34,557 nt of DNA from a virus. The position numbers were made by a program, and so were the translations under genes. Position 1 is the first letter of the stretch. Each line of letters opens with the position of its first letter. Under the pieces are notes generated by a model, which saw nothing but the letters and a program-made list of their open reading frames with translations, was not told the DNA's origin and ran no database searches. Shown here piece by piece: positions 1,616 through 30,373 of this stretch. Location: IMG/VR virus record IMGVR_UViG_3300035162_000704, positions 1-34,557 of that record; one strand, 5' to 3'.

Positions 1616-1850
1616 GCAACGCGCTAACTACGAGCGCATTGCTGTGGAGCAACGCCATATAAACGACATGGCCGATGCAAGGCAGCTTGTGCAGATGTAT
1701 CACTCAAAACACAAAGACATACAAAAGGAGTGGATGCAAGGCGTGTTCCTTCAGATTGTAAAAACAAAAGGTGCTGCTGAGATGGAAAGAGTACGCAGTT
1801 GCATGACAAAAGTGAGATTGACAGAATATGAAAATAACATTACGCAATAG
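1536..1850 (+). CDS. Hypothetical protein, start uncertain (alternative starts GTG 1644 or ATG 1668)
   Basis: Open frame of 104 aa. Its 5' part overlaps ORF 1493..1615 in another frame. Confidence 0.5.
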   Translation: MVHLSTALTLFGKPLKQRATWPKFTSEQRANYERIAVEQRHINDMADARQLVQMYHSKHKDIQKEWMQGVFLQIVKTKGAAEMERVRSCMTKVRLTEYENNITQ

Positions 1851-2235
1851 CAACCAAGGTGTGTCGCAGATGCGACAACTGTGGGACAAGATGAAGGAAG
1901 CGCTAGACAGCGGTGTTGCCTTGGTTGTTCAGGTTGACAAAGAAACGCGGTCGCAAGAGCAAAACGCAATGTATCATTCAATCATTGACCAAATTGCAAA
2001 ACAAGCCAAACATTTAGGATCGTCTTGGGACTCTGAATCTTGGAAGCGGCTGCTGGTTGATACCTACACCAGAGAGATTGGGCAGGAAAGCGGAAAGGTC
2101 ATTCCGAATTTGACGGGCGATGGCATTGTCCAATTGGGATTGCAAACACGAAAATTTACCAAAGCACAAGCATCGGAATTTACCGAATGGCTTATAGCTT
2201 GGGCAGCGCAAAACGGGGTAACGCTACATGACTAA
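1828..2235 (+). CDS. ninB: NinB/Orf-family recombination mediator
   Basis: TRSQEQNAMYHSIIDQIAK...WDSESWKRLL...VIPNLTGDGIVQLG...ASEFTEWL lines up with the lambda NinB pattern (RSLDQN...LDAESWK...VVPNLAGNGFVV...). Confidence 0.85.
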   Translation: MKITLRNSNQGVSQMRQLWDKMKEALDSGVALVVQVDKETRSQEQNAMYHSIIDQIAKQAKHLGSSWDSESWKRLLVDTYTREIGQESGKVIPNLTGDGIVQLGLQTRKFTKAQASEFTEWLIAWAAQNGVTLHD

Positions 2236-2779
2236 AAGGTGCAAAGGATGCCGCGAGGTCTTTACAGCAGACCGGCCAATGCAGGTAGTGTGCAGCTACC
2301 TGTGCGCAATGGACATATCAAAAAAGATGGCGGCTAAGGCTGTGAGGGCTGACAAAAAAGAAACCAAGGTAAAGCTGGACGCTTTACAAACTAAGCCTCA
2401 ATTGACTAAGAAAGCTCAGACTGCTTTTAACGCATTCATCAGGGCTAGGGATGTAGGCAAGCCTTGCATAAGCTGTGATAAGCCGTTTGACCCAGCGCCC
2501 AACACCACTGACGCTGGTCATTTTCGGAGCGTAGGCAGTGCGCCACATATGCGTTTTGTGGAATGGAACTGCTATGGGCAATGCAAACATTGCAATATTT
2601 TTTTGGCAGGTAATTCGCTTGAGTACCGCAAACGCCTTTTAAGCAGGCTGGGTGAAAAAGAACTTGAATTGCTTGAGAATGACAACGTTTTGCGTAAGTA
2701 CACGCATGAAGGTTTAATTGAAATAGCAAGGCACTACAACGCAGAGACTAGACGGTTAACAAAAGAACGGTTAGACTGA
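2228..2779 (+). CDS. ninG: NinG/Rap-family recombination endonuclease
   Basis: N-terminal CxxC, then AQTAFNAFIRARDVGKPCISC...DAGHFRSVGSAPHMRF...CKHCN...GN...YR, as in lambda NinG. Confidence 0.85.
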   Translation: MTKRCKGCREVFTADRPMQVVCSYLCAMDISKKMAAKAVRADKKETKVKLDALQTKPQLTKKAQTAFNAFIRARDVGKPCISCDKPFDPAPNTTDAGHFRSVGSAPHMRFVEWNCYGQCKHCNIFLAGNSLEYRKRLLSRLGEKELELLENDNVLRKYTHEGLIEIARHYNAETRRLTKERLD

Positions 2780-8787: not shown

Positions 8788-10548
8788 ATGGCTACAATGA
8801 ATACGTCGAACGCACCTAATCTGTTAAGCACGCCTAATCAGGCTGGCCAGTTAAATGCACCTACCTCGCTATTGCAATCTCAACAGCCGATGTCTGGGCT
8901 GCTTAATTCCTCGTACTTTCCCGTTTCTAAACAGATGGGTCAGCCGGGGCAAGCAAACGACTTGATAAATATTACTCAGAACGCAGGCCAAGGCCCACAG
9001 TTGCAGAATGTCATTAACGCAGTGCAAGCTCAGTACAACCCAGAGACTTACACCGCAAACGGTCAAAGCTACGGGGCTGGGCGGTTTATGCAACCAACAG
9101 ACTTTGGCGCATTTACACCAGCGACATCACCGACTCCTGTGTTTTCGTTTACTCCGAGTGTGTTTGATATAAACAACTACCCAGCGCTTTCAAATATGCC
9201 AGCCGCGCCAGTAGTAGAGCCACCTATAATTGCCCCGGTTACAAATACAAGTGATGGCGGGTCAATCGACTATTCTTTACCGGAAACTAACACACCATTT
9301 AACTCAACAGGTCAACCCGGCGAACAAGCTAATGATTCTGCTTATGATCCGTATGATGCATTAATAAACCCATCAAGCAATTTAAGAACTGCTGCGGCTG
9401 CTATTCCGGGAATAGGTGGATTGGTGTCTCTGGGTCTTGGGGCTAAAGAAGGATGGGACAACGCAGCCGCAGCTAATGCTTTGGCAACGGGTATAGCGGC
9501 GTATGGTGAAGATGTGTCAGACCTGACAACAAATCGTTATACGGCGGCTATAGCCAAAGCGTTTGGGATTGATACCACAGGAATTCAAGCAGCAAAAGCA
9601 TTGGTAGGCCCAGATGGGACTTACAGCAGCGTTGAGAACTTATACGGGGATTTAACCGCTACAAATGACCCAACTGTTAAAGGTATAGTTGATTTTGTTA
9701 GCACTCGCAATGGCGCCCCTCAAAACGCTAATGCGGCTGGGAAACTTGGTTTTGACATTAGCACGCAAATACATTCAGTTATCGCTAGTCAGCGTGGTAT
9801 GGGCTTAAACGAGGCTGTTGCAATAGTTGCTCAAGCAAATGGTATGACTGCGGAACAGGCTACGGCACTTGCAGCCAATTTACCGCCTGATTCAATGATG
9901 CAAGAAGTGGCCAACAATCTGAACACTGGGGCAATGCCTGTTGTAAACGACACAACCGGATTATTAGGATCAACCGTTGATACATCTGTAGGCTTGCCAT
10001 CGCTACCCAACGTGTTTTCAGAGACATCAGCGCCGCCAGACTCAGTTACTAGAAGCCCTGCCACACCAAGACCGTCAGTGCAGGAATTTACGCCTGCTGA
10101 AAAAGCTGAATTTAATGATGCAATAGTGGCGGCGGCGGCGGTTGAGGGTAAGACCGTTCAGCAAAAGGCTTTAGAGGTTGCTATAAAGCAAGGCTACACA
10201 ATGTCTGAAGTTGACACAATGCTAGGTTTAACATCGGGATATGCTGCAAACTACGAGGCAACCGGTTTTTCTCAAGACGTAGCAAACTCTACCGCTAACA
10301 AAGCGATGTCACAAGCAGCAGCAGCAGTTGCAGCCGCAGGTGGCAATGTATCTAAGTCTCAAGCAGAAGCTATTGCTAACGCTACAGACGACCCAGTTGC
10401 GGCAATGATTGAGATTACGAAGAACGCGAATTACAACCAAAACAGCGGCAGCAGTGGATTCAGTGGTATGACTCCGGGTAATGCTGTGACAGACAGTTCT
10501 GGCCAAGCAGTCCGCACCGTTAATGGTGGCTATGTAACATCAGGCTAA
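8788..10548 (+). CDS. Low-complexity A/G/T/N/Q-rich virion-module protein (586 aa), function unknown
   Basis: Long ORF between the portal and scaffold genes. No recognisable catalytic motif. Confidence 0.7.
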   Translation: MATMNTSNAPNLLSTPNQAGQLNAPTSLLQSQQPMSGLLNSSYFPVSKQMGQPGQANDLINITQNAGQGPQLQNVINAVQAQYNPETYTANGQSYGAGRFMQPTDFGAFTPATSPTPVFSFTPSVFDINNYPALSNMPAAPVVEPPIIAPVTNTSDGGSIDYSLPETNTPFNSTGQPGEQANDSAYDPYDALINPSSNLRTAAAAIPGIGGLVSLGLGAKEGWDNAAAANALATGIAAYGEDVSDLTTNRYTAAIAKAFGIDTTGIQAAKALVGPDGTYSSVENLYGDLTATNDPTVKGIVDFVSTRNGAPQNANAAGKLGFDISTQIHSVIASQRGMGLNEAVAIVAQANGMTAEQATALAANLPPDSMMQEVANNLNTGAMPVVNDTTGLLGSTVDTSVGLPSLPNVFSETSAPPDSVTRSPATPRPSVQEFTPAEKAEFNDAIVAAAAVEGKTVQQKALEVAIKQGYTMSEVDTMLGLTSGYAANYEATGFSQDVANSTANKAMSQAAAAVAAAGGNVSKSQAEAIANATDDPVAAMIEITKNANYNQNSGSSGFSGMTPGNAVTDSSGQAVRTVNGGYVTSG

Positions 10549-10564
10549 CCATAACAGGATTTAA

Positions 10565-10795
10565 ATGGACAGAATAGAACGAGCAACGCATTTACTGCAA
10601 GACGAATTCTTTGTTAGCGTAATGGCCGCATTGAAAGAAACTGAAATAAATGCTATCATTAACTCAAATGAGAATGATTGCGACTTACGTGAAAGCTCTT
10701 ATAAAACCATTAAGGTACTTGATACTTTGGTTGCGCACATACAGTCTATTGCAGACGGTGCAAAACTACGTGACAAGCGCTGGACGATTCTGTAA
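10565..10795 (+). CDS. Hypothetical head-module protein (76 aa)
   Basis: AGGA SD. ORF lies between the 586-aa protein and the scaffold gene. Confidence 0.6.
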   Translation: MDRIERATHLLQDEFFVSVMAALKETEINAIINSNENDCDLRESSYKTIKVLDTLVAHIQSIADGAKLRDKRWTIL

Positions 10796-10850
10796 CTACT
10801 GTAGTTACGAACGGATGACAGACCGTATCTGTTGAAAATTGGATTGAATT

Positions 10851-11828
10851 ATGGCAGACACCAACCCATCCGGGAGTGAAGCTCTAAATGTTAGCTCTGC
10901 GGCAGAGGCGTTTTTAGGATTAATGGGCGATGATGAGGGAGCTGATAGCCAACCCGAACTCGAACAAGATTCTGAGGAAGTAACTGTTGATGAAGCGGAT
11001 GAGTCTAGTGATTCTGAGGAAAGTCAAGAATACGAAGATGAATCCGAAGATGAATCTGATGAACCTAAGCCTGAACCCACGCGGTACAAGGTAAAGGCCG
11101 CTGGCGAAGAAGTCGAGGTCGAACTCGATGAACTCATTGCTGGCTACCAGAGAAGCAAGGACTATACACAAAAATCCCAAACACTTGCAGAGGCTCGTAA
11201 GTCTTTAGAGACTCAACAAGCACAAGTGGCAGAAATACAAAGAGAGCGCGAGGCGTACTCACAACGGCTAACAGCTATAGATAATTTCTTAGCCAAGCAA
11301 GAAGTGAGTCGAGAAAATATAGCGGAGTTGAAAGAGACTGACCCAATCGGCTATGCGATTGCAACAGCAGACCAGTATGAGCGAGATAAGCAACGCGAAG
11401 CGGTACGAGTAGAGCAAGCCGGGATTGCTGAAAAGCAACGATCCGACCACTCTGCGGGACTGCAAGCACACTTACAACGTGAGTCACAACTGTTAACTGA
11501 GGCAATCCCAGAAATGGCTGGCGAAGGTGGCAACAAGTTAAAGCAAGAGGTTATGGCCTATGCAAAGACTAAGGGCTACACAGACGAGCAGATTGGAAAA
11601 CTATATGACCATCGCGCAGTGGTCGCATTGCATGGGGCAATGAAATGGGAAGCGTTGCAGAAATCAAAACCAGAGGCGATGAAACGGGTGCAGGCCGCAC
11701 CTAAAGTGCTAAAGGCAGGAACTGCACCACCTTCAACAACCGGGCAACGCGACAAGCAAACTATGGCGCGGCTAAAGCAATCTGGACGAATCCAAGACGC
11801 AGCAGCCGCTTTTGAACGATTCTTGTAA
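10851..11828 (+). CDS. Scaffolding protein
   Basis: Immediately upstream of the capsid gene. Strongly acidic N-terminus (DESSDSEESQEYEDESEDESDE) followed by a long helical, coiled-coil-like sequence. Confidence 0.7.
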   Translation: MADTNPSGSEALNVSSAAEAFLGLMGDDEGADSQPELEQDSEEVTVDEADESSDSEESQEYEDESEDESDEPKPEPTRYKVKAAGEEVEVELDELIAGYQRSKDYTQKSQTLAEARKSLETQQAQVAEIQREREAYSQRLTAIDNFLAKQEVSRENIAELKETDPIGYAIATADQYERDKQREAVRVEQAGIAEKQRSDHSAGLQAHLQRESQLLTEAIPEMAGEGGNKLKQEVMAYAKTKGYTDEQIGKLYDHRAVVALHGAMKWEALQKSKPEAMKRVQAAPKVLKAGTAPPSTTGQRDKQTMARLKQSGRIQDAAAAFERFL

Positions 11829-20283: not shown

Positions 20284-23200
20284 ATGGCAAAGACAAAGAT
20301 CAGCGAATTCGACGCAACGCAGATAAACAACACGGATATTGACAACATCAATATTGCGGAGGGCTGCGCACCGAGTGGAATTAACAACGCAATCCGTGAG
20401 CTAATGGCTCAACTAAAGGACTTCCAGACAGGCACTGCTGGCGATTCCCTCACAGTTGGTGGCAACCTAGCTGTAACCGGCACATCAACGCACACGGGCG
20501 CACTAGCGGCCAATGGCGGCATTACCGGCACAACCGCAGTAGTTTCTAGCCTTACCGTCAACACAAGCGCAGTAATTGCCTCTGCTGACATTAATGCTGG
20601 AACAATCGACGGCGCTGTGATTGGTGGCGCTGCGGCGCAGGCTGTGACCGGCACATTGATTACAGCAAGCACCGGATTTGTCGGTGGCGTAACTGGTGCT
20701 GTTGTCGGCAACGTAACTGGCAACGTTACGGGAAGTGTGACTGGCAATGTTGTAGGTAATTTAATTGGCAACGTGACTGGTGATGTAACCGGCAACGTCA
20801 CTGCTACCACAGGGACAACTACCCTTGCTGACGTAATCATTCGTGGCGGTCTGGACATGGACGCAGGAACGTCTGCAACCATCACAAACCTAGCAGCACC
20901 TACCAATTCAGGCGACGCAGCCACCAAGGGATACACAGACGCTCAGACGGCTTTAAAACTGTCCTTGTCTGGCGGCACTATGAGTGGCGCTATTGCGATG
21001 GGTGCAAACAAGATCACGGGTTTGGGTACGCCAACCGCTGATGCTGACGCTGCAAGCAAAATTTATGTGGATGGGCTTGTACAAGGCTTAGACGCAAAAG
21101 CATCTTGTGTCGCGGCCTCTACTGCAAACTTAACACTGTCTGGCGCACAAACTATTGATGGTGTGTCTGTAGTTGCTGGCAACAGGGTGTTGGTAAAAGA
21201 CCAAAGCACAGCTTCAGCAAACGGTATTTATGTTGCCGCAGCAGGCGCTTGGGCAAGGTCTACAGACGCAGATACATGGGACGAACTGGTTTCAGCCTTT
21301 GTTTTTGTTGAGGGTGGAACAGCAAACGCAGACAACGGCTTTACTTGCACAAACAACGCAGGCGGCACGCTAGGATCAACAGCAGTTACTTGGGTGCAGT
21401 TCTCAGGTGCTGGACAGATCACCGCAGGGGACGGCTTATCTAAAACTGGCAACACCATAAACGTCGGCACTGCTGCTGCTGGTCGGATTGTTGTAAACGC
21501 TGACAACATCGACTTGGCCACAACGGGCATATCGGCTGGCACGTACAGATCAGTGACGATTGATGCTTACGGTCGGGCAACTGCTGGCACTACGCCGACA
21601 ACCATCTCCGGCTACAGCATCTCAGACGCTTACACCAAGACCGAGATTGACACCACTGTTAGCGGGTTATTGGCCAAGACCGGCGGCACAATGTCTGGGG
21701 CTATCGCTCTAGGCACAAACAAGCTGACAGGGGTGGGCGATCCTACTTCTGCACAAGACGCGGCTACAAAGAATTACATAGACGTACTGTTTGGCTCAAC
21801 AACATCTGCGGCAGCATCTGCTGCGACCGCAGCGACACGGGCAGGCGAAGCAGCCACCAGTGCAGGTAACGCATCAACCAGCGAAACAAATGCATCAGCA
21901 TCAGCAACCGCCGCAAATGACTCAAAAATAGCAGCCGCAGCCAGCTACGATGCTTTTGATGACCGCTACCTTGGAAGTAAGTCGTCTTCACCTAGTGTAG
22001 ACAACGATGGTAATGCGTTACTAACTGGTGCTTTGTACTGGGACACAACAGCCAGCCAAATGCGAGTTTACACAGGCAATAGCTGGGTGGCTACGGGATC
22101 GGCGGTTAATGGTACTACTTCACGAGAAGTATATACAGCTAATTCTAGCCAAACAACCTTTGCTGTTGTCTACGATGCTGGATATGTTGACGTTTACCTG
22201 AACGGTGTAAAGCTAGTTGCAGGCACAGACTTTACAGCAACCTCTGGAACAAACATTGTTTTAGCTACTGCCGCAACTGATGGTGACATTGTTGACATAG
22301 TGGCTTATGGTGCTTTTGCTCTTGCAGATGTCTACACCAAGGCAGCTTCTGATGCACGCTACGCTACCGCAGCGCAGGGTGCAGGCACAGGTGTAACTTC
22401 TACTTATGTGTCCTCTGTCACAGTTGGCGGTACAACTTTCGCACAACCAGCAGTCACCGGGGAAATAAACTCTGATGAAGGCTTTGTTCAAGTTAACTAC
22501 GCAGGCGCAACGGGCATTACCGTTACCACTTTAACGTCAGCATCCACGTATGTATACATAGATAAAAACGGTGCTTTACAGCAGCAAACTACTGAGCCAA
22601 CACGCCAAGACTGGTCTCGTAAAATGTTTACGATGCGGATTGCAGTAGACACAACAACAAATTTAGTTCTTGGTTTTGAGTATTTAAACAACCCAATTGG
22701 TCGTTACGCAAACAGCATAAGAGATGTGTATTCGTTTCTTTTGTCTAATGGTGTACCTTTCAAGAAGGATCAGACTGTTACAGGTCGGGCGGGAGACTTA
22801 GGTTTTGACGTCAGCGCTGGAACTATGTTGGAGTTTGGCGGTACGGGGGATATATATGACCCAAACATTCTCTCGTTTTCATCAGTAGCAAACGCTGCGT
22901 TTTTCTTGTCAACAAGAACGGCGTTTGACGCAGGCGGAAATACAAACCTTCCTAAGTTTTGGGACAACGCTGGAACAATTACAGCGCTTGGTTCTACCAC
23001 CGTAGTTGGGCATCGTCTGTATCGTTTCAGTAACGGTAATATTTGTTTGCAATACGGCCAAGGCAACTATGCCAACATGACGCTGGCAAAAACGGGTGCA
23101 TTGCTGGAAGACTATGTATTAAACCCAGCCCTAGAAAATGCTACGTTTTTCGGCTGGTGGTTCATTGAAAGCACTGCTACAAACACAGCAGGAACAACAT

Positions 23201-23688
23201 TAACAGCATTTAAAGAGTACACGATTGGAGTCGGTGGCGGTATATCTTCAGCCTTATCAGGTGCGCTGCTGCAAGGTAACAACTTGTCTGATGTGCTCGA
23301 TGCTGCAACTGCAAGAACAAATTTAAGTGTTGTTGGCATAACAGATACACAGACGCTGACAAACAAGACCATCACTGGTGTTGTTGAGACTAAGGTGGCA
23401 ATGGCAGCACACGCTATTGACCTGTCCTTAGGCAACTACTTCACCTACACTTTGTCTGGCGCTCAAACACTAACTGTCAGTAACGTAGCTGCTAGTGGCT
23501 CTGTAAGTGCATTTGTGCTTGAAGTGACCAATGGTGGCTCTGCTGCCTTGACATTCTTTAGTGGCGTGACTTGGGCTGCTGCTACACCTCCTACACTTAC
23601 CGCTGCTGGTGTTGACAACCTAGCCTTCTTTACCTCAGACGGTGGCACGACTTGGAGAGGCTTTGTCCTTGGATTGGGGATGGCGTAA
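20284..23688 (+). CDS. Tail fibre protein (1134 aa)
   Basis: Three copies of the fibre motif ...L(A/G)xPxxxxDAA(T/S)KxY(V/T/I)D, a GNVT repeat tract, NNLSDVLDAATARTNLSV and an A/S/T-rich coiled segment. Confidence 0.85.
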   Translation: MAKTKISEFDATQINNTDIDNINIAEGCAPSGINNAIRELMAQLKDFQTGTAGDSLTVGGNLAVTGTSTHTGALAANGGITGTTAVVSSLTVNTSAVIASADINAGTIDGAVIGGAAAQAVTGTLITASTGFVGGVTGAVVGNVTGNVTGSVTGNVVGNLIGNVTGDVTGNVTATTGTTTLADVIIRGGLDMDAGTSATITNLAAPTNSGDAATKGYTDAQTALKLSLSGGTMSGAIAMGANKITGLGTPTADADAASKIYVDGLVQGLDAKASCVAASTANLTLSGAQTIDGVSVVAGNRVLVKDQSTASANGIYVAAAGAWARSTDADTWDELVSAFVFVEGGTANADNGFTCTNNAGGTLGSTAVTWVQFSGAGQITAGDGLSKTGNTINVGTAAAGRIVVNADNIDLATTGISAGTYRSVTIDAYGRATAGTTPTTISGYSISDAYTKTEIDTTVSGLLAKTGGTMSGAIALGTNKLTGVGDPTSAQDAATKNYIDVLFGSTTSAAASAATAATRAGEAATSAGNASTSETNASASATAANDSKIAAAASYDAFDDRYLGSKSSSPSVDNDGNALLTGALYWDTTASQMRVYTGNSWVATGSAVNGTTSREVYTANSSQTTFAVVYDAGYVDVYLNGVKLVAGTDFTATSGTNIVLATAATDGDIVDIVAYGAFALADVYTKAASDARYATAAQGAGTGVTSTYVSSVTVGGTTFAQPAVTGEINSDEGFVQVNYAGATGITVTTLTSASTYVYIDKNGALQQQTTEPTRQDWSRKMFTMRIAVDTTTNLVLGFEYLNNPIGRYANSIRDVYSFLLSNGVPFKKDQTVTGRAGDLGFDVSAGTMLEFGGTGDIYDPNILSFSSVANAAFFLSTRTAFDAGGNTNLPKFWDNAGTITALGSTTVVGHRLYRFSNGNICLQYGQGNYANMTLAKTGALLEDYVLNPALENATFFGWWFIESTATNTAGTTLTAFKEYTIGVGGGISSALSGALLQGNNLSDVLDAATARTNLSVVGITDTQTLTNKTITGVVETKVAMAAHAIDLSLGNYFTYTLSGAQTLTVSNVAASGSVSAFVLEVTNGGSAALTFFSGVTWAAATPPTLTAAGVDNLAFFTSDGGTTWRGFVLGLGMA
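20683..20802 (+). repeat. Ten tandem 12-nt units encoding G-[NGASD]-[VL]-[TVI]
   Basis: GGVT GAVV GNVT GNVT GSVT GNVV GNLI GNVT GDVT GNVT read in frame. This tract generates the spurious antisense ORF 20409..20936. Confidence 0.9.
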
Positions 23689-25592
23689 TGGCTATCAGAG
23701 ATATTGTACAAGCCGCTGCTGGTGCTGGTGAAGATAAGCTGTATGTTGACGATGTGTTCTCAACTTACTTATATACAGGCAACAGCTCCACCCAGACAAT
23801 CAACAACGGTATTGACTTAGATGGTAAGGGTGGGTTGATTTGGGGTAAAGTTCGAAATTCAGTAGACAATAATTGGTTGATTGATACGGCGCGTGGAGCA
23901 TCAAAAGTATTAGCATCTAATCTGAACGCAGCACAAACTACACCGGGCCCGCCAGATTGGGTTTCTTTTAATAACAACGGATTTTCAATTGGTGCATCAA
24001 ACGGAGAAATAAATCAATCATCACAAACATATGTTTCATGGACGCTCCGCAAGAGTCCTAAATATTTTGACATTGTGACCTACACGGGGAATGGAAGTAC
24101 ACAAAACATTTCTCATAGCCTTGATACACAGCCGGGTTGCGTGATGATTAAAAAGACAAGCGGCGCTGGGGATTGGATGATATGGCATAGAGGTTTGTCA
24201 GCGGGTCACTACATTCGATTTACTACAGCGGCACAGAATAATTCATTTAACGATGCGTACTTTGGCAACAGCACTACTTATGTAGACCCCACATCAACAC
24301 AGTTTACTGTTGGTTATGGAGACTTAGTAAACTCCAATGGCGCAACTTTCGTCGCATACGTCTTTGCCCATGATGCTGGCGGCTTCGGGGACGATGGTGA
24401 GCAAGATGTTATTAGCTGTGGGAGTTTTACTACTGATGGCAGTGGTAATGCTATTGTTAATTTAGGGTATGAGCCTCAATGGGTTTTGGTAAAACCAGCA
24501 AGTACCGCTGGACAGTGGCGACTCTTTGATACCATGCGGGGGTTTAGTCACTCAAGTGCTGCCATGTTATTACCAAACCTTGCTAATGCAGAGGGCGTTA
24601 ATACTACTGCTGAAAGGTATTTTCCAACCGCAACTGGTTTTAATCTTACCCCTTATGATGCAGGCGGTGTTACAAGCATGTACATGGCCATTCGCCGCCC
24701 AATGAAAACTCCTGAGGCGGGAACTGAGGTGTTTGCTATGGATACTCAAGGAGGTTCTTCTGGAAAACCTAATTTCAAAAGTGGGTTTCCTGTGGATTTT
24801 GCTTTTGTAGCTGAGACTGGTGGGAGTGCAAGATTAAATAGCAGTCGCTTAACTTCTCCAAAGATAATGTATTTTAATAATACTAATGCAGAATCATCTG
24901 ACGCAGAGCGAACGTTTGATTATCAAAATGGATGGGGCAACAGCACTGATGTTGATTCAACACGCTACTCATGGATGTTTAAACGCGCCCCCGCCTTTAT
25001 GGATGTGGTGGCTTTTACACAAGTTGGGACTGGAAGTGTTCAAACGATTAACCATAACTTAACAGTTGTGCCAGAGTTAATTATATTTAAAACAAGGGGC
25101 GGAGGAGATAACTGGAGAGTTCGTGTTGGCTCGTATTCGGGAGGTGGAATTCTTAACTCAAATAGTGGATTTTCATCTAGTTTATATGCCACAAACCTTA
25201 CATCAACTACTTTTGGCTTTAATCAAAGTACGGCGGGGTATAACAGCGGAATGACTTTTGTATCCTACCTATTCGCCACCCTAGCAGGTGTAAGTTGCGT
25301 ATCTAGCTACAGCGGAACTGGCGGTAACGTAAATGTGGATTGTGGCTTCAGCGGGGGTGCAAGGTTCATCTTAATCAAACGAACTGACTCCACTGGTGAT
25401 TGGTATTTGTGGGACTCAGCTAGAGGCATCGTGGCTGGCAATGACCCATACTTGCTCTTGAACACCACAGCGGCTCAAGTGACCAACACAGATTACATTG
25501 ACCCATTGGCAAGTGGCTTTACCGTAACATCATCAGCACCAGCGGCATTGAATGCAAGTGGTGGCAGCTACATCTTCTTGGCAATAGCTTAA
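23688..25592 (+). CDS. Receptor-binding-type distal tail protein, paralogue 1 (634 aa, six internal repeats)
   Basis: TAATG coupling to the fibre gene. Full-length paralogue of 26085..28052, with identical nucleotide runs at both ends. Confidence 0.7.
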   Translation: MAIRDIVQAAAGAGEDKLYVDDVFSTYLYTGNSSTQTINNGIDLDGKGGLIWGKVRNSVDNNWLIDTARGASKVLASNLNAAQTTPGPPDWVSFNNNGFSIGASNGEINQSSQTYVSWTLRKSPKYFDIVTYTGNGSTQNISHSLDTQPGCVMIKKTSGAGDWMIWHRGLSAGHYIRFTTAAQNNSFNDAYFGNSTTYVDPTSTQFTVGYGDLVNSNGATFVAYVFAHDAGGFGDDGEQDVISCGSFTTDGSGNAIVNLGYEPQWVLVKPASTAGQWRLFDTMRGFSHSSAAMLLPNLANAEGVNTTAERYFPTATGFNLTPYDAGGVTSMYMAIRRPMKTPEAGTEVFAMDTQGGSSGKPNFKSGFPVDFAFVAETGGSARLNSSRLTSPKIMYFNNTNAESSDAERTFDYQNGWGNSTDVDSTRYSWMFKRAPAFMDVVAFTQVGTGSVQTINHNLTVVPELIIFKTRGGGDNWRVRVGSYSGGGILNSNSGFSSSLYATNLTSTTFGFNQSTAGYNSGMTFVSYLFATLAGVSCVSSYSGTGGNVNVDCGFSGGARFILIKRTDSTGDWYLWDSARGIVAGNDPYLLLNTTAAQVTNTDYIDPLASGFTVTSSAPAALNASGGSYIFLAIA

Positions 25593-25611
25593 AACATTGG
25601 AGAATTAAATA

Positions 25612-26088
25612 ATGAGTAAAGCAAAAATACTAGCAACAACCGTTTCGGATGGTAACGTGCTGGCAGACGGTACGGTTGCCTATGCAGAAGTGAGCGGCAC
25701 ACCAACGCTTCCTACATTCCCTAGCGGCACTGTTGTAGGTACAACGGATACACAGACATTATCCGGTAAGACCATCACAAACCTAATCAATGACGGGTCT
25801 ATCACTGAAGAAGTGTACACGTTAACAGGTACAGCGATTGATCCATCTAACGGCACAATCCAAGTCAAGGCTCTGTCAGGCATTGTGACATTGACAGACT
25901 CAGTAAGTGCTGGTCAGAGTGTTGTGCTGATGATTACTGGCGGCGCTTCCTATGCCATTACATGGCCTACAATGACATGGGTGACTAGTGGTGGCAACGT
26001 AGCTCCTACGTCTACGGCTAGTGATACCTTTGTCTTGTGGAAAATCAGCACCACGCTGTACGGTGCTTATGTAGGTAACTATGTATGA
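25612..26088 (+). CDS. Stand-alone homologue of the tail-fibre C-terminal domain (158 aa)
   Basis: TDTQTLSGKTITN...AIDPSNGT...LSGIVTLTDS...ITGGASYAITW aligns with fibre residues ITDTQTLTNKTITG...AIDLSLGN...LSGAQTLTVS...VTNGGSAALTF. Confidence 0.7.
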   Translation: MSKAKILATTVSDGNVLADGTVAYAEVSGTPTLPTFPSGTVVGTTDTQTLSGKTITNLINDGSITEEVYTLTGTAIDPSNGTIQVKALSGIVTLTDSVSAGQSVVLMITGGASYAITWPTMTWVTSGGNVAPTSTASDTFVLWKISTTLYGAYVGNYV

Positions 26089-28052
26089 GCAAGTTAGCTA
26101 AGACGTTACAGGCTGCTGCGGGTAATGCTGGTGGGGATAAGCTGTATGTTGACGATGTGTTCTCAACTTACTTATATACAGGCACGGGTTCAGCAATAAC
26201 AATCACCAACGGGATTGATCTGGCTGGTGAAGGCGGCATGGTTTGGAATAAATGCCGAACATCAGCAACAAACCACGCAATGTCAGATACAGAAAGAGGC
26301 ATACCTTCAACTCTTAAACCTAACAAAACACAGGGAGAAAGCACAAGCACAGGATATTTTACATCTTTTAACTCAGATGGCTGGTCAATGGGAGGTAACA
26401 CAGAAACTAACTTAGCAAATGAACAGTTTGCCTCATGGACATGGCGCAAGAGTCCTAAATATTTCGACATTGTGACCTACACAGGGAATGGTGTTGCAAG
26501 AACTATTGCACATTCACTTGGCTCTGTGCCGGGAATGATTATTGTTAAATCTACAACTTATGGTTTAGGGTGGCCTGTTTATCATCGCTCTTTGGGGCAA
26601 TACACAAACACGCTTTACCTTGACGCTACTTCTTCGGCAGGCGCAAGTAAATGGAATGAGCAATTACCAACAGACTCAGCTTTTCCAATTAGCGCCAATG
26701 ATTATGTAAATAAAGCTGGTGAAACTTATGTGGCTTATCTCTGGGCCCATGATGCTGGGGGCTTTGGGGACGATGGTGAGCAGAATGTAATTAGCTGTGG
26801 GAGTTTTACTTGTGATGCTGTTGGTAGTGCAACTGTTAGCCTTGGATATGAGCCTCAATTTGTCATAATGAAAAAAGCAGATGGCGGCGCACAAGATTGG
26901 ATTACGCTTGATGTATTACGGGGTTGGTCACAAACATCGGACAACTATTTAAGGCCAAATTCGTCAGCCGCAGAAGTGGCGTCTTCGGGGCTAGGATTTC
27001 CGACCGCAACAGGATTTACAGAAGCGGGGTTGGGTAGCTCAGGCTCAACATACATCTACATGGCAATTCGCCGCCCAATGAAAACTCCGGCAAGTGGGAC
27101 TGAGGTGTTTGCTCCTGTATCAAGAACAGGGAATGCATCAGTAACTACCGTATCAGCAGGGTTTGCTCCTGACTTTGTTTTAAGTAATAATACGTCAAAC
27201 GGGGCAAGTAACCGAAGGATAGTGGGTACAAAACTAATAGGAACTACAAACTACTTACGAACAGAAACCACTGCCTCTGAATTAGTGGGTAGGGCTGACG
27301 CTGTTACTTCATACACTAATAGTGGAATAGTTTTAGGGGCTGATGTAGATACTGCGGCTTTTAATACTAATAATTTCCCTTATATTCTTTATATGATGCG
27401 CCGTGCCCCATCCTTTATGGATGTAGTTTGCTATACAGGGACGGGAAGTGGTGCAAACACTGTAACGCATGGGCTAACAGTCGCCCCTGAACTGCTTATA
27501 ACAAAGATACGCAGTGGAGGTACTGAATCTGGTGTGGGTGGTTGGGGGGTGTACGCAGCACCTTTAACTATTGCAAAAGTTTTAGAGCTTAATGCTACAA
27601 CCGCTAGTGCATCAGATAATTGGTTTAGCGGAAACACTGGTGATGAAGCTGCGCCGACATCTACGCAGTTTACAGTTTGGGGTAATGATCCACACTCAAA
27701 TAGGGCAAACGGTAACTACGCAGCCTACCTCTTCGCCAGCCTAGCTGGTGTAAGTAAAATTGCCAGCTACAGCGGAACTGGTAATTTTGTAAATGTTGAT
27801 TGTGGTTTTGCTGCTGGTGCTCGGTTCGTGATGATTAAGCGCACTGACTCCACTGGTGATTGGTATGTATGGGACTCAGCTAGAGGTATTGTTGCTGGTA
27901 ATGATCCATATCTGCTTCTTAATAGCGCAGTTGCTCAAGTGACCAACACTGATTACATTGACCCATTGGCAAGTGGCTTTACCGTAACATCATCAGCGCC
28001 AGCGGCTTTAAATGCTTCAGGTGGCACTTACATTTTCTTGGCAATAGCGTAA
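26085..28052 (+). CDS. Receptor-binding-type distal tail protein, paralogue 2 (655 aa, six internal repeats)
   Basis: ATGA coupling to 25612..26088. It shares DKLYVDDVFSTYLYTG, RKSPKYFDIVTYTGNG, AHDAGGFGDDGEQ.VISCGSFT, YMAIRRPMKTP and the last ~90 aa with paralogue 1. Confidence 0.7.
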   Translation: MSKLAKTLQAAAGNAGGDKLYVDDVFSTYLYTGTGSAITITNGIDLAGEGGMVWNKCRTSATNHAMSDTERGIPSTLKPNKTQGESTSTGYFTSFNSDGWSMGGNTETNLANEQFASWTWRKSPKYFDIVTYTGNGVARTIAHSLGSVPGMIIVKSTTYGLGWPVYHRSLGQYTNTLYLDATSSAGASKWNEQLPTDSAFPISANDYVNKAGETYVAYLWAHDAGGFGDDGEQNVISCGSFTCDAVGSATVSLGYEPQFVIMKKADGGAQDWITLDVLRGWSQTSDNYLRPNSSAAEVASSGLGFPTATGFTEAGLGSSGSTYIYMAIRRPMKTPASGTEVFAPVSRTGNASVTTVSAGFAPDFVLSNNTSNGASNRRIVGTKLIGTTNYLRTETTASELVGRADAVTSYTNSGIVLGADVDTAAFNTNNFPYILYMMRRAPSFMDVVCYTGTGSGANTVTHGLTVAPELLITKIRSGGTESGVGGWGVYAAPLTIAKVLELNATTASASDNWFSGNTGDEAAPTSTQFTVWGNDPHSNRANGNYAAYLFASLAGVSKIASYSGTGNFVNVDCGFAAGARFVMIKRTDSTGDWYVWDSARGIVAGNDPYLLLNSAVAQVTNTDYIDPLASGFTVTSSAPAALNASGGTYIFLAIA

Positions 28053-28090
28053 GCCGTAAGGCTCTCAACAGACTTTTAAAGGATCAATAT

Positions 28091-28600
28091 ATGTCTGAAT
28101 ATCGTAATCGCACCACTGGTGCAGTAAACACACAAGGCGAAATTCGCCGCTCAATGCCTAACACTAGCTTGCCACGGGTATGGACTAGCTCTATATGCGA
28201 CAGCCTTGGCATTGACCCAGTGCTGGCAGCACCAGCTCCAGAGGCTTCTGGTGAGTACAAGTCAGTCTACCGTGATGGTGTTGTACAAGACGCACTAGGG
28301 AACTGGGTGCAAGCATACGCTGAACGTGATATGTTTTCTGCATACGTCACAGAGGATGATGTGGCAGTCACCAAAGCCTCACAAGAAGAAGCGTACACAG
28401 CCGCTAAAACAGCAGAGGCCGCAACCGCTGCCCGTAACACTCGTGACGGCTTGATTGCAAGTAGCGACTGGCGGGCTATTAAAGCGTTTGAAGCAGGAGC
28501 TACGGTAGGCGCAGACTGGGCAACCTATCGCCAAGCCTTGCGTGATGTTACAGATCAAGCGGGCTTCCCTAACGAAATCGTGTGGCCTGAAAAACCATAA
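28091..28600 (+). CDS. Tail fibre assembly/chaperone-like protein
   Basis: C-terminal pattern RDGLIASSDWRAIKAFEAG...WATYRQALRDVTDQAGFPNEIVWPEKP is typical of tail fibre assembly proteins. Confidence 0.7.
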   Translation: MSEYRNRTTGAVNTQGEIRRSMPNTSLPRVWTSSICDSLGIDPVLAAPAPEASGEYKSVYRDGVVQDALGNWVQAYAERDMFSAYVTEDDVAVTKASQEEAYTAAKTAEAATAARNTRDGLIASSDWRAIKAFEAGATVGADWATYRQALRDVTDQAGFPNEIVWPEKP

Positions 28601-29729: not shown

Positions 29730-29921
29730 ATGTTGTGGTTGCCTGTAGCGTTTATTTGTTTTTTTGGTGGCAATTGTAGTTTTGCCAGTGGCCGCCCGAC
29801 TGCGACAGCCAGCCAGTGTGAGGAAAAAAACTACAGGCTGCGGCATGAGCTTATTATTGACATGAGAATCTCAAAGTTTGAGCTTACTTGTCTAGAAATC
29901 CCAAAGGTATCATTTATATGA
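29730..29921 (+). CDS. Small secreted Cys-containing protein (63 aa), possible spanin-like component
   Basis: Strong AAGGAG SD before ATG 29730. Signal-peptide-like MLWLPVAFICFFGGNCSFASG with a non-canonical lipobox. ATGA coupling to the endolysin gene. Confidence 0.5.
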   Translation: MLWLPVAFICFFGGNCSFASGRPTATASQCEEKNYRLRHELIIDMRISKFELTCLEIPKVSFI

Positions 29922-30373
29922 AGCTATCAGCTAATTTTTCACTTAACGAGCTAACCAAGAGTGAGACAGCGACCCGCAACGGCATTTTTAACACACCATC
30001 AGCGCTGGTCATTGGAAAGCTGCAAGCATTGACTGACAACATCCTGCAACCATTGCGCGACAAGTTTGGCCCGGTCATTGTCACAAGTGCGTATCGTTCG
30101 CCAGAGGTTAACAAGGCTGTTGGGGGAAGCACCAGTTCGCATCACTGTTTTGGGTTTGCAGCCGACTTTGAGGTGCTTGGTATGGACAATCGCGAATTAG
30201 CTCTATACATCAGGGATTCGCTAACCTATACCCAGTTAATACTTGAGTATTACAATGGCGACCCAGATTCAGGCTGGGTGCATTGCAGCTATGACGCAGC
30301 CGACCTAAAGTGCCAAACACTAACTGCCAGACGGGTCAACGGGCGCACCCAGTACAGCAACGGGATTCTTTAA
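29918..30373 (+). CDS. Endolysin, peptidase M15 family (Zn D,D- or L-Ala-D-Glu peptidase type)
   Basis: SAYRSPEVNKAVGGSTSSHHCFGFAADF...GWVHCSY gives the H/D/H zinc-ligand pattern of M15 phage lysins. Confidence 0.85.
   Translation: MKLSANFSLNELTKSETATRNGIFNTPSALVIGKLQALTDNILQPLRDKFGPVIVTSAYRSPEVNKAVGGSTSSHHCFGFAADFEVLGMDNRELALYIRDSLTYTQLILEYYNGDPDSGWVHCSYDAADLKCQTLTARRVNGRTQYSNGIL

What the first reader, a model, noticed from the sequence alone, without database searches (positions are those of the whole stretch)
23338..28052. Tandem duplication of a two-part receptor-binding cassette (small fibre-tip domain + ~640-aa six-repeat protein)
The last ~115 aa of the 1134-aa fibre (nt ~23338-23685) are homologous to the stand-alone 158-aa ORF 25612..26088.
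- Fibre: ITDTQTLTNKTITG...AIDLSLGN...LSGAQTLTVS...VTNGGSAALTF.
- 158-aa ORF: TDTQTLSGKTITN...AIDPSNGT...LSGIVTLTDS...ITGGASYAITW.

Each of these is followed, with start/stop overlap (TAATG at 23686-23690, ATGA at 26085-26088), by a large paralogue: 23688..25592 and 26085..28052.

The paralogues share exact nucleotide runs at both ends. A 49-nt run at 23733-23781 equals 26136-26184. A 47-nt run at 25491-25537 equals 27951-27997. Their interiors diverge and look more AT-rich by eye.

So the unit [tip domain + large protein] is present twice, about 2.4 kb apart. It is fused to the fibre shaft once and free-standing once. This looks like a branched, dual-specificity receptor-binding apparatus, or a cassette-exchange system whose conserved ends act as recombination anchors.
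Basis: seen in the sequence. Interest (0 to 1): 0.75.

Follow-up and report, generated by a model that had tools for sequence, protein, structure and literature searches.

The report
Two plug-and-socket tail-fibre receptor cassettes
An uncultured aquatic short-tailed phage carries two adjacent "socket domain plus plug-bearing receptor-binding head" cassettes; they belong to a very widespread and apparently undescribed modular system for attaching interchangeable host-recognition proteins to phage fibres.

Summary
The coordinates, the start/stop overlaps, the 49-nt and 47-nt exact runs, the two 48%-identical six-repeat paralogues and the homology between the fibre C-terminus and the 158-aa ORF are all real.

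It is not a recent in-situ duplication. Each large protein has closer relatives in other phages than its neighbour.

The ~100-aa "tip domain" is a conserved domain that lies at the extreme C-terminus of its carrier protein in 187 of 188 cases. The carriers are fibres or small adapters of 126-1407 aa. There are about 6,000 clusters at 50% identity and no Pfam model.

The gene immediately downstream usually opens with a ~14-aa peptide, mostly ending AAAG(N). The body behind that peptide varies: DUF7483 x2, LamG or beta-propellers.

The peptide co-varies with the upstream domain and not with its own body. In close relatives, homology to the window stops exactly after codon 14 of the second large gene and resumes after its stop codon. 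Only the body was swapped there.

I read the domain as a socket and the peptide as a plug. The window pairs two different socket/plug types (B1 with D1, A with D2) and has one shared tail-fibre chaperone. Binding, stoichiometry and the adapter's attachment site are inferred, not shown.

The parts
20284..23688 (+). Tail fibre, 1134 aa. Its N-terminus is probably the tail anchor and its middle is a long shaft. Its C-terminus ends in the type-B1 socket domain.
   Evidence: PHROG tail-fibre families. The shaft shares 70-76% nt identity with the fibres of L004 and L092. The socket (AD) HMM matches aa 1032-1130.
23377..23685 (+). Socket domain (AD), sub-type B1, ending ...FFTSDGGTTWRGFVLGLGMA. It forms the last ~100 aa of the fibre.
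   Evidence: Type-B HMM score of 150 bits against 0 for type A. 88% identical to the L004 fibre C-terminus. In L092-L095 the same socket sits on small adapters of 182-195 aa.
23688..25592 (+). D1, 634 aa. A receptor-binding head made of two DUF7483 units (six ~105-aa repeats). The start codon overlaps the fibre stop (TAATG).
   Evidence: Pfam PF24299, E=8e-75. PHROG 24898 and 19943. It has the consensus residue at 176 of 188 positions that are at least 90% conserved in the family.
23688..23729 (+). Plug peptide of D1, MAIRDIVQAAAGAG. This is the variant that goes with socket B1.
   Evidence: Every B1 socket is followed by MA[IV]RD[IV]VQAAAG.... Across the family the plug follows the socket type and not the body.
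25612..26088 (+). Free-standing adapter, 158 aa. Residues 1-62 form an N-terminal anchor module (MSKAKILATTVSDGNVLADGTVAYAEVSG...). Residues 63-158 form the type-A socket, ending ...TTLYGAYVGNYV.
   Evidence: More than 513 homologues share a conserved C-terminal ~100 aa and have variable N-termini. AF2 pLDDT is 85, with a beta-rich domain at residues 63-158. The same anchor is joined to a B1 socket in L092, at 85% nt identity.
26085..28052 (+). D2, 655 aa. The second receptor-binding head (DUF7483 x2). The start codon overlaps the adapter stop (ATGA).
   Evidence: Pfam PF24299, E=1e-93. AF2 pLDDT 87.5 and pTM 0.86. It has the consensus residue at 178 of 188 conserved family positions.
26085..26126 (+). 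Plug peptide of D2, MSKLAKTLQAAAGN. This is the variant that goes with socket A.
   Evidence: Homology between the window and L005 runs from 25338 to 26125 and stops there. The body behind the plug is unrelated (DUF7483 against LamG).
23733..23781 (+). 49-nt exact repeat, copy 1. It encodes DKLYVDDVFSTYLYTG and starts 3 nt (one codon) after the end of the D1 plug. Copy 2 is at 26136-26184.
   Evidence: The probability that all 16 codons match by chance is about 9e-8. The best window-versus-other same-codon fraction over this segment is 0.6.
25491..25537 (+). 47-nt exact repeat, copy 1. It encodes DYIDPLASGFTVTSS(A) in repeat R6. Copy 2 is at 27951-27997.
28091..28600 (+). Tail-fibre assembly chaperone, 169 aa. 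It is the only one in the locus and is of the type (MSEYRxRxTGxV...) that follows DUF7483 heads elsewhere.
   Evidence: Pfam PF16778 Phage_tail_APC, 66 bits against a 26.6-bit cut-off. PHROG tail-fibre assembly families. The same chaperone type follows DUF7483 heads in L032, L022, L092 and L094.

Best explanation
The locus encodes two modular receptor-binding cassettes of a plug-and-socket type.

In each cassette, a carrier protein ends in a conserved ~100-aa beta-rich domain (the socket). The very next gene encodes a separate head protein. I infer that the first ~14 residues of that head (the plug, ...AAAG[N]) dock it non-covalently onto the socket.

- Cassette 1: the 1134-aa fibre, with a type-B1 socket, carries D1.
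- Cassette 2: the 158-aa adapter, with a short N-terminal anchor and a type-A socket, carries D2.

D1 and D2 are six-repeat DUF7483 x2 proteins. Their variable repeats, R4 and R5 above all, most likely contact host receptors. Their very conserved last repeat (R6) would let the single downstream Phage_tail_APC chaperone serve both.

Because the two socket/plug pairs differ, each head would be directed to its own carrier. One virion could then display two different heads.

The array evolves by exchanging modules. Head bodies are replaced between the end of the plug and the stop codon. Anchors and sockets are also reshuffled. Short tracts of gene conversion occur between the two paralogues.

Shown: the anatomy, the family-wide gene coupling, plug-socket covariation, the breakpoints, and the intactness of both copies.

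Inferred: physical docking, receptor binding by D1 and D2, simultaneous display on one virion, chaperone sharing, and where the 158-aa adapter attaches.
For: 1. Position and coupling. Among 188 socket-bearing proteins in 172 loci, the domain ends within 0-8 residues of the C-terminus in 187. In nearly every case where sequence continues, a gene starts within about -4 to +18 nt; a few starts lie 22-46 nt away or at -37 nt, and L097, L105 and L106 show no such gene despite several kb of downstream sequence. All 150 best hits among 1.84 billion representative proteins also end at the C-terminus.

2. Conserved plug on unrelated bodies. Downstream proteins usually begin with M(S)KLAKAL[TQ]AAAGNAG-like peptides (a minority of type-B sub-types carry divergent N-termini). 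Their bodies are DUF7483, Laminin_G_3, RCC1, SGL/lactonase or SBBP beta-propellers.

3. The plug follows the socket, not the body (144 non-redundant cassettes).
- Unrelated bodies and sockets at least 70% identical: mean plug identity 0.52.
- Unrelated bodies and sockets below 45% identical: 0.29.
- Similar bodies and different sockets: 0.34.
- A permutation test gave 0 of 500 shuffles reaching the observed correlation.
- None of 444 pairs with plugs at least 78% identical has sockets at or below 45%.

4. Selection acts on the peptide. The same-codon fraction at identical plug residues is 0.36, which is the random expectation.

5. Breakpoints. Window-to-L005 homology covers 25338-26125 and ends after plug codon 14. 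It resumes at 28065, after the D2 stop at 28052, in the chaperone gene.

6. Recurrent multi-cassette arrays.
- L004-L008 have two.
- L022, L047, L109, L132, L139 and L162 have two.
- L028/L032 and L044 have three.
- In five of these arrays (the window, L004-L008, L022, L032, L047) one A socket is combined with one B socket. L109, L132, L139 and L162 instead carry two type-B sockets, of differing sub-types in L132, L139 and L162; L044 has two B and one A.

7. Both window copies are intact, with 176 and 178 of 188 conserved positions. There is no promoter or terminator excess inside the array.

8. Tail-fibre context: PHROG tail-fibre families and the PF16778 chaperone. The gene order fibre/adapter > head > chaperone is the same in CRP-1, CRP-4, MW202710 and an SU10-like phage.
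Against: - There is no structural or biochemical evidence that socket and plug touch. Both structure-prediction jobs went on monomers, so no complex was predicted.
- Socket and plug lie a few nucleotides apart. Part of their covariation could therefore be simple linkage.
- The best PDB fold match of the adapter model is Pa223 capsid spike gp52 (E=1.4e-4, TMq 0.44). Its C-terminal knob is described as TNF-like. That is the kind of fold that often forms a terminal receptor-binding knob.
- Similarity to the gp10-like branching domains of CBA120 TSP4 is weak (E about 0.13).
- D2's model has no significant PDB neighbour (best E=1.4e-3, TM 0.16). Receptor binding therefore rests on context alone.
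- The attachment site of the 158-aa adapter is unknown.
- The locus has only one chaperone, whereas L032 and L022 have one per cassette.
- There are no expression or virion-proteome data for this phage.
Confidence: 0.68

Rival explanations
1. A plain, fairly recent tandem duplication of one [tip + large protein] unit. The interiors then diverged, and the ends stayed similar only through purifying selection.
For: The two units lie in the same order and orientation about 2.4 kb apart. The paralogues align over their full length. The repeat families are collinear. At identical residues 62% of codons are the same, against 36% expected.
Against: D1 is the most distant of 49 aligned homologues of D2. 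D1 itself has relatives up to 60% identical, against 49.5% to D2. D2's best relatives (63-65%) are in single-cassette phages with Mtd_N adapters. The two sockets are of different sub-types (44% identity over 89 aa) and the plugs differ. Relatives carry an unrelated LamG head in slot 2, with clean breakpoints.
Confidence: 0.1
2. The small C-terminal domain is itself the distal receptor-binding knob of the fibre. The downstream large proteins are accessory, for example assembly factors, lateral decorations or non-virion proteins.
For: The best PDB fold match is Pa223 capsid spike gp52, whose C-terminal knob is TNF-like. The domain is terminal. BFVD neighbours are annotated as tail fibres.
Against: The domain is the best-conserved part of the cassette, at 60-70% identity across unrelated phage lineages. 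The downstream proteins are the hypervariable and interchangeable part. Proteins as short as 126-141 aa consist of little beyond this domain yet still precede a large head. Plug and socket covary. A dedicated chaperone gene already follows the head.
Confidence: 0.12
3. Only one cassette is functional. The second is a spare or decaying copy that serves as a recombination reservoir.
For: There is one chaperone for two heads. Gene-conversion tracts show that the copies exchange sequence. In L022 a DUF7483 head is split into two ORFs.
Against: Both window heads keep 176-178 of 188 conserved positions, within the family range of 173-187. Both have intact plugs and overlapping start/stop codons. The two-slot layout is conserved in relatives from at least five samples.
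Confidence: 0.1

Closest known systems
Anchor or branching-domain plus conserved N-terminal docking-peptide RBP systems of enterobacterial phages: K1-5/SP6 gp37 adapter, G7C gp66/gp63.1, CBA120 TSP1-4, and Klebsiella KP32/K11/KP34 (Latka et al. 2019, PMC6872550; experimental validation in PMC13352976)
   Same: A carrier protein offers a docking domain. A separate receptor-binding protein has no anchor of its own and attaches through a short conserved N-terminal peptide (7-29 aa in those systems, about 14 aa here). Two or more RBPs are encoded side by side. RBP bodies are exchanged behind the conserved peptide.
   Different: The socket here is a different, unannotated domain. It has no Pfam hit, and its fold similarity to the gp10-like domains of CBA120 TSP4 is only E about 0.13. 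It is always at the extreme C-terminus, so the head continues the fibre in series and does not branch near the N-terminus. The heads are single-chain repeat folds (DUF7483, LamG, beta-propellers), not trimeric beta-helix tailspikes or depolymerases. One peptide theme (AAAG[N]) is shared by thousands of aquatic phages and is not specific to one genus.
T2/T6/S16-type long tail fibre tip adhesin: gp38 bound to the C-terminal tip of gp37 (from my own knowledge)
   Same: A separate adhesin gene lies directly downstream of the fibre gene. The adhesin sits on the fibre's distal end and determines host range.
   Different: There is no sequence relationship. No gp38-type family was found in Pfam or PHROGs. 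Here the attachment element is a short peptide. The socket is also found on tiny free-standing adapters, which allows several cassettes per genome.
PF24299 (DUF7483) proteins of pelagiphages, cyanophages and roseophages, variously annotated as tail fibre, SPRY, LamG or virion structural protein
   Same: D1 and D2 are full members, each with two copies of the domain. Homologues occur in CRP-1, CRP-4, HTVC011P and SS120-1, mostly one per genome and followed by a chaperone.
   Different: The window has two copies on two different carriers. No paper in the library mentions DUF7483, so the family has no described function or attachment mode.

Membership tests
PF24299 DUF7483 | Match to the Pfam model above the gathering score of 27 bits | tested here: met
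   D1 scores 252 bits and D2 314 bits, each with two matched stretches. The three-repeat substructure of each unit is confirmed by hhalign.
PF16778 Phage_tail_APC (tail-fibre assembly chaperone) | Match above the gathering score of 26.6 bits, and a position directly downstream of a fibre or RBP gene | tested here: met
   28091-28600 scores 66.2 bits. PHROG tail-fibre assembly families match at E down to 5e-20.
Branching-domain / docking-peptide RBP systems (K1-5, G7C, CBA120, KP32) | The carrier contains a T4 gp10-like (XD2/XD3) branching domain | tested here: inconclusive
   Foldseek of the adapter model against CBA120 TSP4 N-terminal fragments gives E=0.13-0.34 and TM 0.28-0.36. The best hit is instead Pa223 capsid spike gp52, whose C-terminal knob is TNF-like. 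There is no Pfam or PDB sequence match.
Branching-domain / docking-peptide RBP systems (K1-5, G7C, CBA120, KP32) | The secondary RBP lacks an anchor domain and carries a short conserved N-terminal peptide, independent of its body | tested here: met
   A ~14-aa plug is conserved in front of DUF7483, LamG, RCC1 and other beta-propeller bodies. It is conserved at the protein level only.
Branching-domain / docking-peptide RBP systems (K1-5, G7C, CBA120, KP32) | Demonstrated physical binding of the peptide to the carrier domain | not testable with these tools
   Only indirect support is available: covariation and the breakpoint position. No complex prediction or experiment was possible.
Branching-domain / docking-peptide RBP systems (K1-5, G7C, CBA120, KP32) | The RBPs are homotrimeric tailspikes or depolymerases | tested here: not met
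   The bodies are single-chain repeat folds: DUF7483 six-repeat, Laminin_G_3, RCC1, SGL/lactonase and SBBP propellers. The D2 monomer model is compact, with pTM 0.86.
Recent in-situ tandem gene duplication | The paralogues are each other's closest relatives | tested here: not met
   D1 ranks 49th of 49 for D2. D2 ranks 24th of 49 for D1. Closer homologues occur in other phages.
Diversity-generating retroelement target (Mtd-like) | A reverse transcriptase and a template/variable repeat pair near the RBP | tested here: not met
   No RT was found among the window ORFs scanned. The only repeats in 20-29 kb are the collinear paralogue blocks. Some adapters elsewhere carry PF18454 Mtd_N, but the window's adapter does not.
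T2/S16 gp38-type tip adhesin | Homology to gp38 adhesins | tested here: not met
   No such family appears in the Pfam or PHROG scans of D1 and D2. Only the gene order is analogous.

The most novel reading that the evidence does not exclude
The socket and AAAG(N) plug form a common attachment standard used by thousands of aquatic phages, both short-tailed phages and at least one T4-like cyanomyovirus.

It comes in several mutually orthogonal socket/plug variants. A genome can therefore stack two or three cassettes without mispairing.

The heads would be single-chain proteins with internal pseudo-symmetry: 3+3 DUF7483 repeats, beta-propellers or LamG. One such head would sit on a trimeric fibre knob with a 3:1 symmetry mismatch.

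That mismatch would explain why socket and head were not found fused in one polypeptide in any of the loci or top hits examined.
Probability: 0.35. Interest if true: 0.8.

Novelty: new variant of a known kind. Interest (0 to 1): 0.62.

Why it matters
How abundant marine and freshwater phages recognise their hosts is largely unknown. This includes relatives of pelagiphages, roseophages and cyanophages. Their fibre genes are mostly annotated as hypothetical.

A recognisable socket, with about 6,000 clusters at 50% identity, would help in three ways when combined with the short plug:
- It would let annotators find the true receptor-binding proteins in metagenomes, whatever their fold.
- It would explain how these phages swap or stack specificities.
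- It would offer a natural plug-and-play interface for engineering host range, as is now being done with the Klebsiella docking-peptide systems.

It would also give a first functional context to DUF7483, a family with at least 8,000 clusters at 90% identity.

Tried and rejected
- Near-identical DNA in the isolate phage database: no match.
- PDB sequence and profile searches with D2, the fibre, the adapter, A1 and A2: nothing relevant.
- Foldseek of the D2 model against the PDB: no hit below E=1e-3. The top hits are beta-prism or three-repeat lectins at TM 0.16, so no fold was assigned.
- T4 gp10-like fold for the socket: too weak to claim.
- Intragenomic homogenisation of the whole conserved C-terminus: rejected, because that region is just as conserved in unrelated family members. 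Only the exact nucleotide tracts are genome-specific.
- The plug as a DNA-level recombination site: rejected, because synonymous positions are randomised.
- DGR-type diversification: no RT and no template repeats.
- The Alteromonas phage R22Y 'six iron-binding domains' fibre paper: it concerns an unrelated T4 gp37-like HxH fibre.
- Internal promoters or terminators separating the cassettes: no more than in shuffled sequence.
- Where the 158-aa adapter docks: comparing its N-terminus with the fibre N-terminus and with the plugs gave only suggestive short similarities, with no test available.


Full report
**1. What is in the sequence**

Between 20.3 and 28.6 kb the + strand carries five tightly packed genes:
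- a 1134-aa fibre (20284-23688);
- a 634-aa protein, D1 (23688-25592, whose ATG overlaps the fibre stop as TAATG);
- a 158-aa protein (25612-26088);
- a 655-aa protein, D2 (26085-28052, overlapping as ATGA);
- a 169-aa protein (28091-28600).

- The 49-nt and 47-nt exact repeats exist and do not extend.
- D1 and D2 are 48% identical over their full length.
- The fibre's last ~115 aa match the 158-aa ORF at 44% identity over 89 aa, E=1e-9.
- Profile-profile comparison of the two sub-families gives E=2.5e-6.

D1 and D2 each contain two PF24299/DUF7483 units. All six ~105-aa segments are homologous to one another, with R1 closest to R4, R2 to R5 and R3 to R6. The 'six-repeat' description is therefore correct.

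The 169-aa protein is a Phage_tail_APC tail-fibre assembly chaperone.

The window is a mosaic short-tailed phage.
- It has a P22/SU10-like portal, a scaffold and a capsid protein, and no tail tube or tape measure.
- It also encodes NinB, NinG, an ERF recombinase and an M15 endolysin.
- Its nearest relatives are uncultured freshwater-spring phages (64% portal identity) and Methylophilales phage Venkman (54%).

**2. Not a recent duplication**

In an alignment of D2, D1 and 48 database homologues, D1 is the most distant from D2 (rank 49 of 49). D1 has relatives up to 60% identical, against 49.5% to D2.

D2's best relatives (63-65%) come from other phages. One sits behind a 206-aa Mtd_N adapter in a single-cassette genome.

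The conserved protein 'ends' are a family property. The last 70 residues of D2 have a median 87% identity to unrelated members, and the first 35 have 65%.

What is specific to this genome is identity at the nucleotide level.
- When codons were resampled from the window's own usage, the longest run never exceeded 35 nt in 2000 trials. The observed runs are 49 and 47 nt.
- In the same two segments the window copies share 94-100% of codons with each other, and at most 60-67% with any other locus.

I read these as short gene-conversion tracts between two paralogues of separate origin. The phage encodes ERF and NinB. From general knowledge, single-strand-annealing recombinases work on homologies of about this length. 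This link is an inference.

**3. The small domain is a conserved C-terminal module coupled to the next gene**

The 158-aa ORF has more than 513 homologues at 90% clustering. At 50% clustering there are 6,016 representative clusters with E<=1e-3. It has no Pfam model.

Only its last ~100 residues are conserved, typically at 60-70% identity. The N-termini are unrelated to one another, and some carry Mtd_N.

I fetched 160 IMG/VR loci with two profiles: type A from the 158-aa ORF and type B from the fibre C-terminus. I added isolate phages and metagenome contigs.
- Among 188 proteins with this domain, it ends within 0-8 residues of the C-terminus in 187. The carriers range from 126 to 1407 aa.
- In nearly every case where sequence continues, a gene starts within -4 to +18 nt. 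A few predicted starts lie further off (gaps of 22-46 nt or -37 nt), and L097, L105 and L106 show no downstream gene despite several kb of flanking sequence.
- That gene usually opens with a peptide of the form M(S)KLAKAL[TQ]AAAGNAG or a sub-type variant. A minority of type-B sub-types carry more divergent N-termini.

The proteins behind the peptide are unrelated to one another. About half are DUF7483 x2. The rest include Laminin_G_3, RCC1 propellers, SGL/lactonase-like and SBBP propellers, and unassigned folds.

No socket-head fusion was seen in any of the loci or top hits examined.

**4. The peptide belongs functionally to the upstream domain**

Across 144 non-redundant cassettes, plug identity follows socket identity and not body identity.

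| Bodies | Sockets | Mean plug identity |
|---|---|---|
| unrelated (<25%) | >=70% identical | 0.52 |
| unrelated (<25%) | <45% identical | 0.29 |
| similar (>=60%) | <45% identical | 0.34 |
| similar (>=60%) | >=70% identical | 0.88 |

- Shuffling plug labels never reached the observed correlation (0 of 500).
- None of 444 pairs with plugs at least 78% identical has sockets at or below 45%.
- Only 7 of 374 pairs with sockets at least 85% identical have dissimilar plugs. Some of those look like mis-called start codons.
- At identical plug residues only 36% of codons agree, which is the random expectation. The peptide is under selection, not a DNA site.

Several type-B sub-types each have their own plug. 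For example:
- ...GFVLGLGMA goes with MA[IV]RD[IV]VQAAAG;
- ...IWYGIASGIGMA goes with MTIEKKLLGT.P, both before LamG bodies and before DUF7483 bodies.

Linkage between adjacent sequences contributes to this signal. Even so, a recurrent exchange boundary immediately after the plug marks a functional domain border.

**5. Direct evidence of module exchange around the window**

The closest relatives (L004-L008, five samples) have the same layout: fibre with a B1 socket, a DUF7483 head, a 158-aa adapter (80% identical) and a chaperone. Their slot-2 protein, however, is a 698-707-aa LamG-type protein.

Nucleotide homology to the window runs from 25338 to 26125. That stretch covers the end of D1, the adapter and exactly 14 codons of D2 (MSKLAKTLQAAAGN against MSKLAKALQAAAGN). 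It stops there and resumes at 28065, after the D2 stop at 28052, in the chaperone gene. Only the body behind the plug was replaced.

The retained chaperone is of the type (MSEYRxRxTGxV...) that follows DUF7483 heads elsewhere. This suggests that [adapter + head 2] was inserted between head 1 and its chaperone.

In L092 a 195-aa adapter combines two window elements:
- the anchor of the window's adapter (25599-25709, 85% nt identity);
- the window's fibre socket and D1 N-terminus (23328-23851, 80%).

Meanwhile L092's long fibre, which shares shaft sequence with the window's fibre, has no socket. Anchors, sockets and heads are thus three separately shuffled modules.

**6. Multi-cassette arrays recur**

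- Two cassettes: L004-L008, L022, L047, L109, L132, L139 and L162.
- Three cassettes: L028/L032 and L044.
- Among loci of at least 14 kb, 3 of 34 show two sockets at a strict threshold.
- In the window, L004-L008, L022, L032 and L047, one type-A socket is combined with one type-B socket. L109, L132, L139 and L162 carry two type-B sockets, of differing sub-types in L132, L139 and L162. L044 has two B and one A.
- The extra small adapters in L022, L028/L032, L092, L004-L008 and the window share the N-terminal motif MSKA..LA..V..G..L.DG.V...E[VI].

The system also occurs in cultured phages:
- roseophage CRP-1 (gp42 then gp41) and CRP-4 (gp53 then gp52);
- the T4-like cyanomyovirus S-CREM2, where gp115 is followed by gp116, which starts MLQSQGLRAGSGG and lies next to baseplate genes.

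**7. Structure**

- The adapter model (pLDDT 85) has a beta-rich domain at residues 63-158.
- Its best PDB neighbour is Pa223 capsid spike gp52 (E=1.4e-4, TMq 0.44). Its authors describe the C-terminal knob of that protein as TNF-like.
- The gp10-like N-terminal domains of CBA120 TSP4 follow at E about 0.13.
- BFVD gives 152 hits, mostly tail fibres. I treat the fold assignment as unresolved.
- The D2 monomer model is confident (pLDDT 87.5, pTM 0.86) except for residues 1-15, which is the plug. It has no significant PDB neighbour.
- Repeat R6 is the most conserved (0.89 mean consensus frequency; 86% D1-D2 identity). R4 is the least conserved (0.41 and 19%), followed by R5. R4 and R5 are therefore candidate specificity surfaces.

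**8. Mechanism proposed**

Each socket-bearing carrier holds a separate head through the head's N-terminal plug. The window has two orthogonal pairs: fibre-B1 with D1, and adapter-A with D2. The virion can therefore display two heads, and the near-identical R6 repeats would allow one chaperone to serve both.

- Shown: the anatomy, coupling, covariation, breakpoints and intactness. Both heads keep 176-178 of 188 conserved positions, and there are no internal promoter or terminator signals beyond chance.
- Inferred: binding, receptor recognition, co-display and chaperone sharing.
- Unknown: where the 158-aa adapter's anchor attaches (tail hub, fibre shaft or elsewhere), and the stoichiometry.

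All identified heads are single-chain folds, and no fusion was seen in any of the loci or top hits examined. This makes a trimer-to-monomer mismatch an attractive but untested idea.

**9. Comparison with known systems**

The principle is that of the docking-peptide and branching-domain RBP systems of K1-5/SP6, G7C, CBA120 and Klebsiella KP32/KP34 phages (PMC6872550). Experimental support was published recently (PMC13352976). In gene order it also resembles the T2/S16 gp37-gp38 tip adhesin (from my own knowledge).

It differs in four ways:
- the socket domain is unannotated and always C-terminal;
- the geometry is serial and not branched near the N-terminus;
- the heads are of a different kind;
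- one peptide theme is shared across very many aquatic phage lineages.

No paper in the library mentions DUF7483. Searches on marine phage fibres found no description of this arrangement.

I rate it a new variant of a known kind. For the window itself, the finding is a genuine dual-cassette example of that variant.

Noticed in passing
L132:5419-11435: After the second adapter, two DUF7483 head genes follow each other directly (9343-11235 and 11247 onward). They have nearly the same plug (MTIERKLLGTSPSGG and MTIERKLLSTSPSGG) and no adapter lies between them. Two alternative heads may therefore compete for one socket.
   Followed up: no
L028:991-8507 and L032:1-6906 (same phage population): Three consecutive cassettes, each with its own chaperone:
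- an 836-aa fibre with a weak B-type socket, then a 1331-aa head;
- a 168-aa type-A adapter, then a DUF7483 head;
- a 176-aa type-B adapter, then a 443-aa SBBP-propeller head.
   Followed up: partly
window:25612-25700, compared with 26085-26130: The adapter's own N-terminus (MSKAKILATTVSDGN...) loosely resembles the plug (MSKLAKTLQAAAGN...). Both start with MSK, have an amphipathic stretch and then x-G-N at about position 13-15. The adapter might itself plug into something, which would allow daisy-chaining. The similarity is too short to test here.
   Followed up: partly
window:32552-33160 (-) and 1828-2779 (+): An ERF-family single-strand-annealing recombinase (PF04404) together with NinB and NinG homologues. 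This is a phage-encoded recombination set that could mediate the short-homology exchanges seen in the fibre locus.
   Followed up: partly
window:21100-21550 (fibre aa ~273-422): The fibre shaft contains a segment that matches 'head decoration' PHROGs and a PDB capsid decoration protein (9nx3_A, E=4e-11). The module appears to be shared between fibres and capsid decorations.
   Followed up: no
L022:3837-5889: The DUF7483 head behind the 653-aa fibre is split into two overlapping ORFs of 510 and 181 aa. This could be a frameshift, an assembly error or a decaying head in a dual-cassette phage.
   Followed up: no
L173:1964-5304 (Synechococcus phage S-CREM2 gp115/gp116): A T4-like cyanomyovirus of 175 kb carries the same C-terminal socket on a 795-aa protein. 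A 317-aa protein follows, starting MLQSQGLRAGSGG. Both lie upstream of a tail assembly chaperone and baseplate wedge genes. The system therefore crosses phage morphotypes.
   Followed up: partly
window:28848-30373: A lysis module lies directly after the chaperone. It has two small proteins with hydrophobic C-terminal or central segments (147 and 143 aa) and a Peptidase_M15_3 endolysin (29888-30373).
   Followed up: partly
window:23688-28052: Both head genes have lower GC (0.443 and 0.450) than the fibre (0.497), the chaperone (0.522) and the window as a whole (0.472). This fits either horizontal origin or an N/S/T/Y-rich composition.
   Followed up: partly
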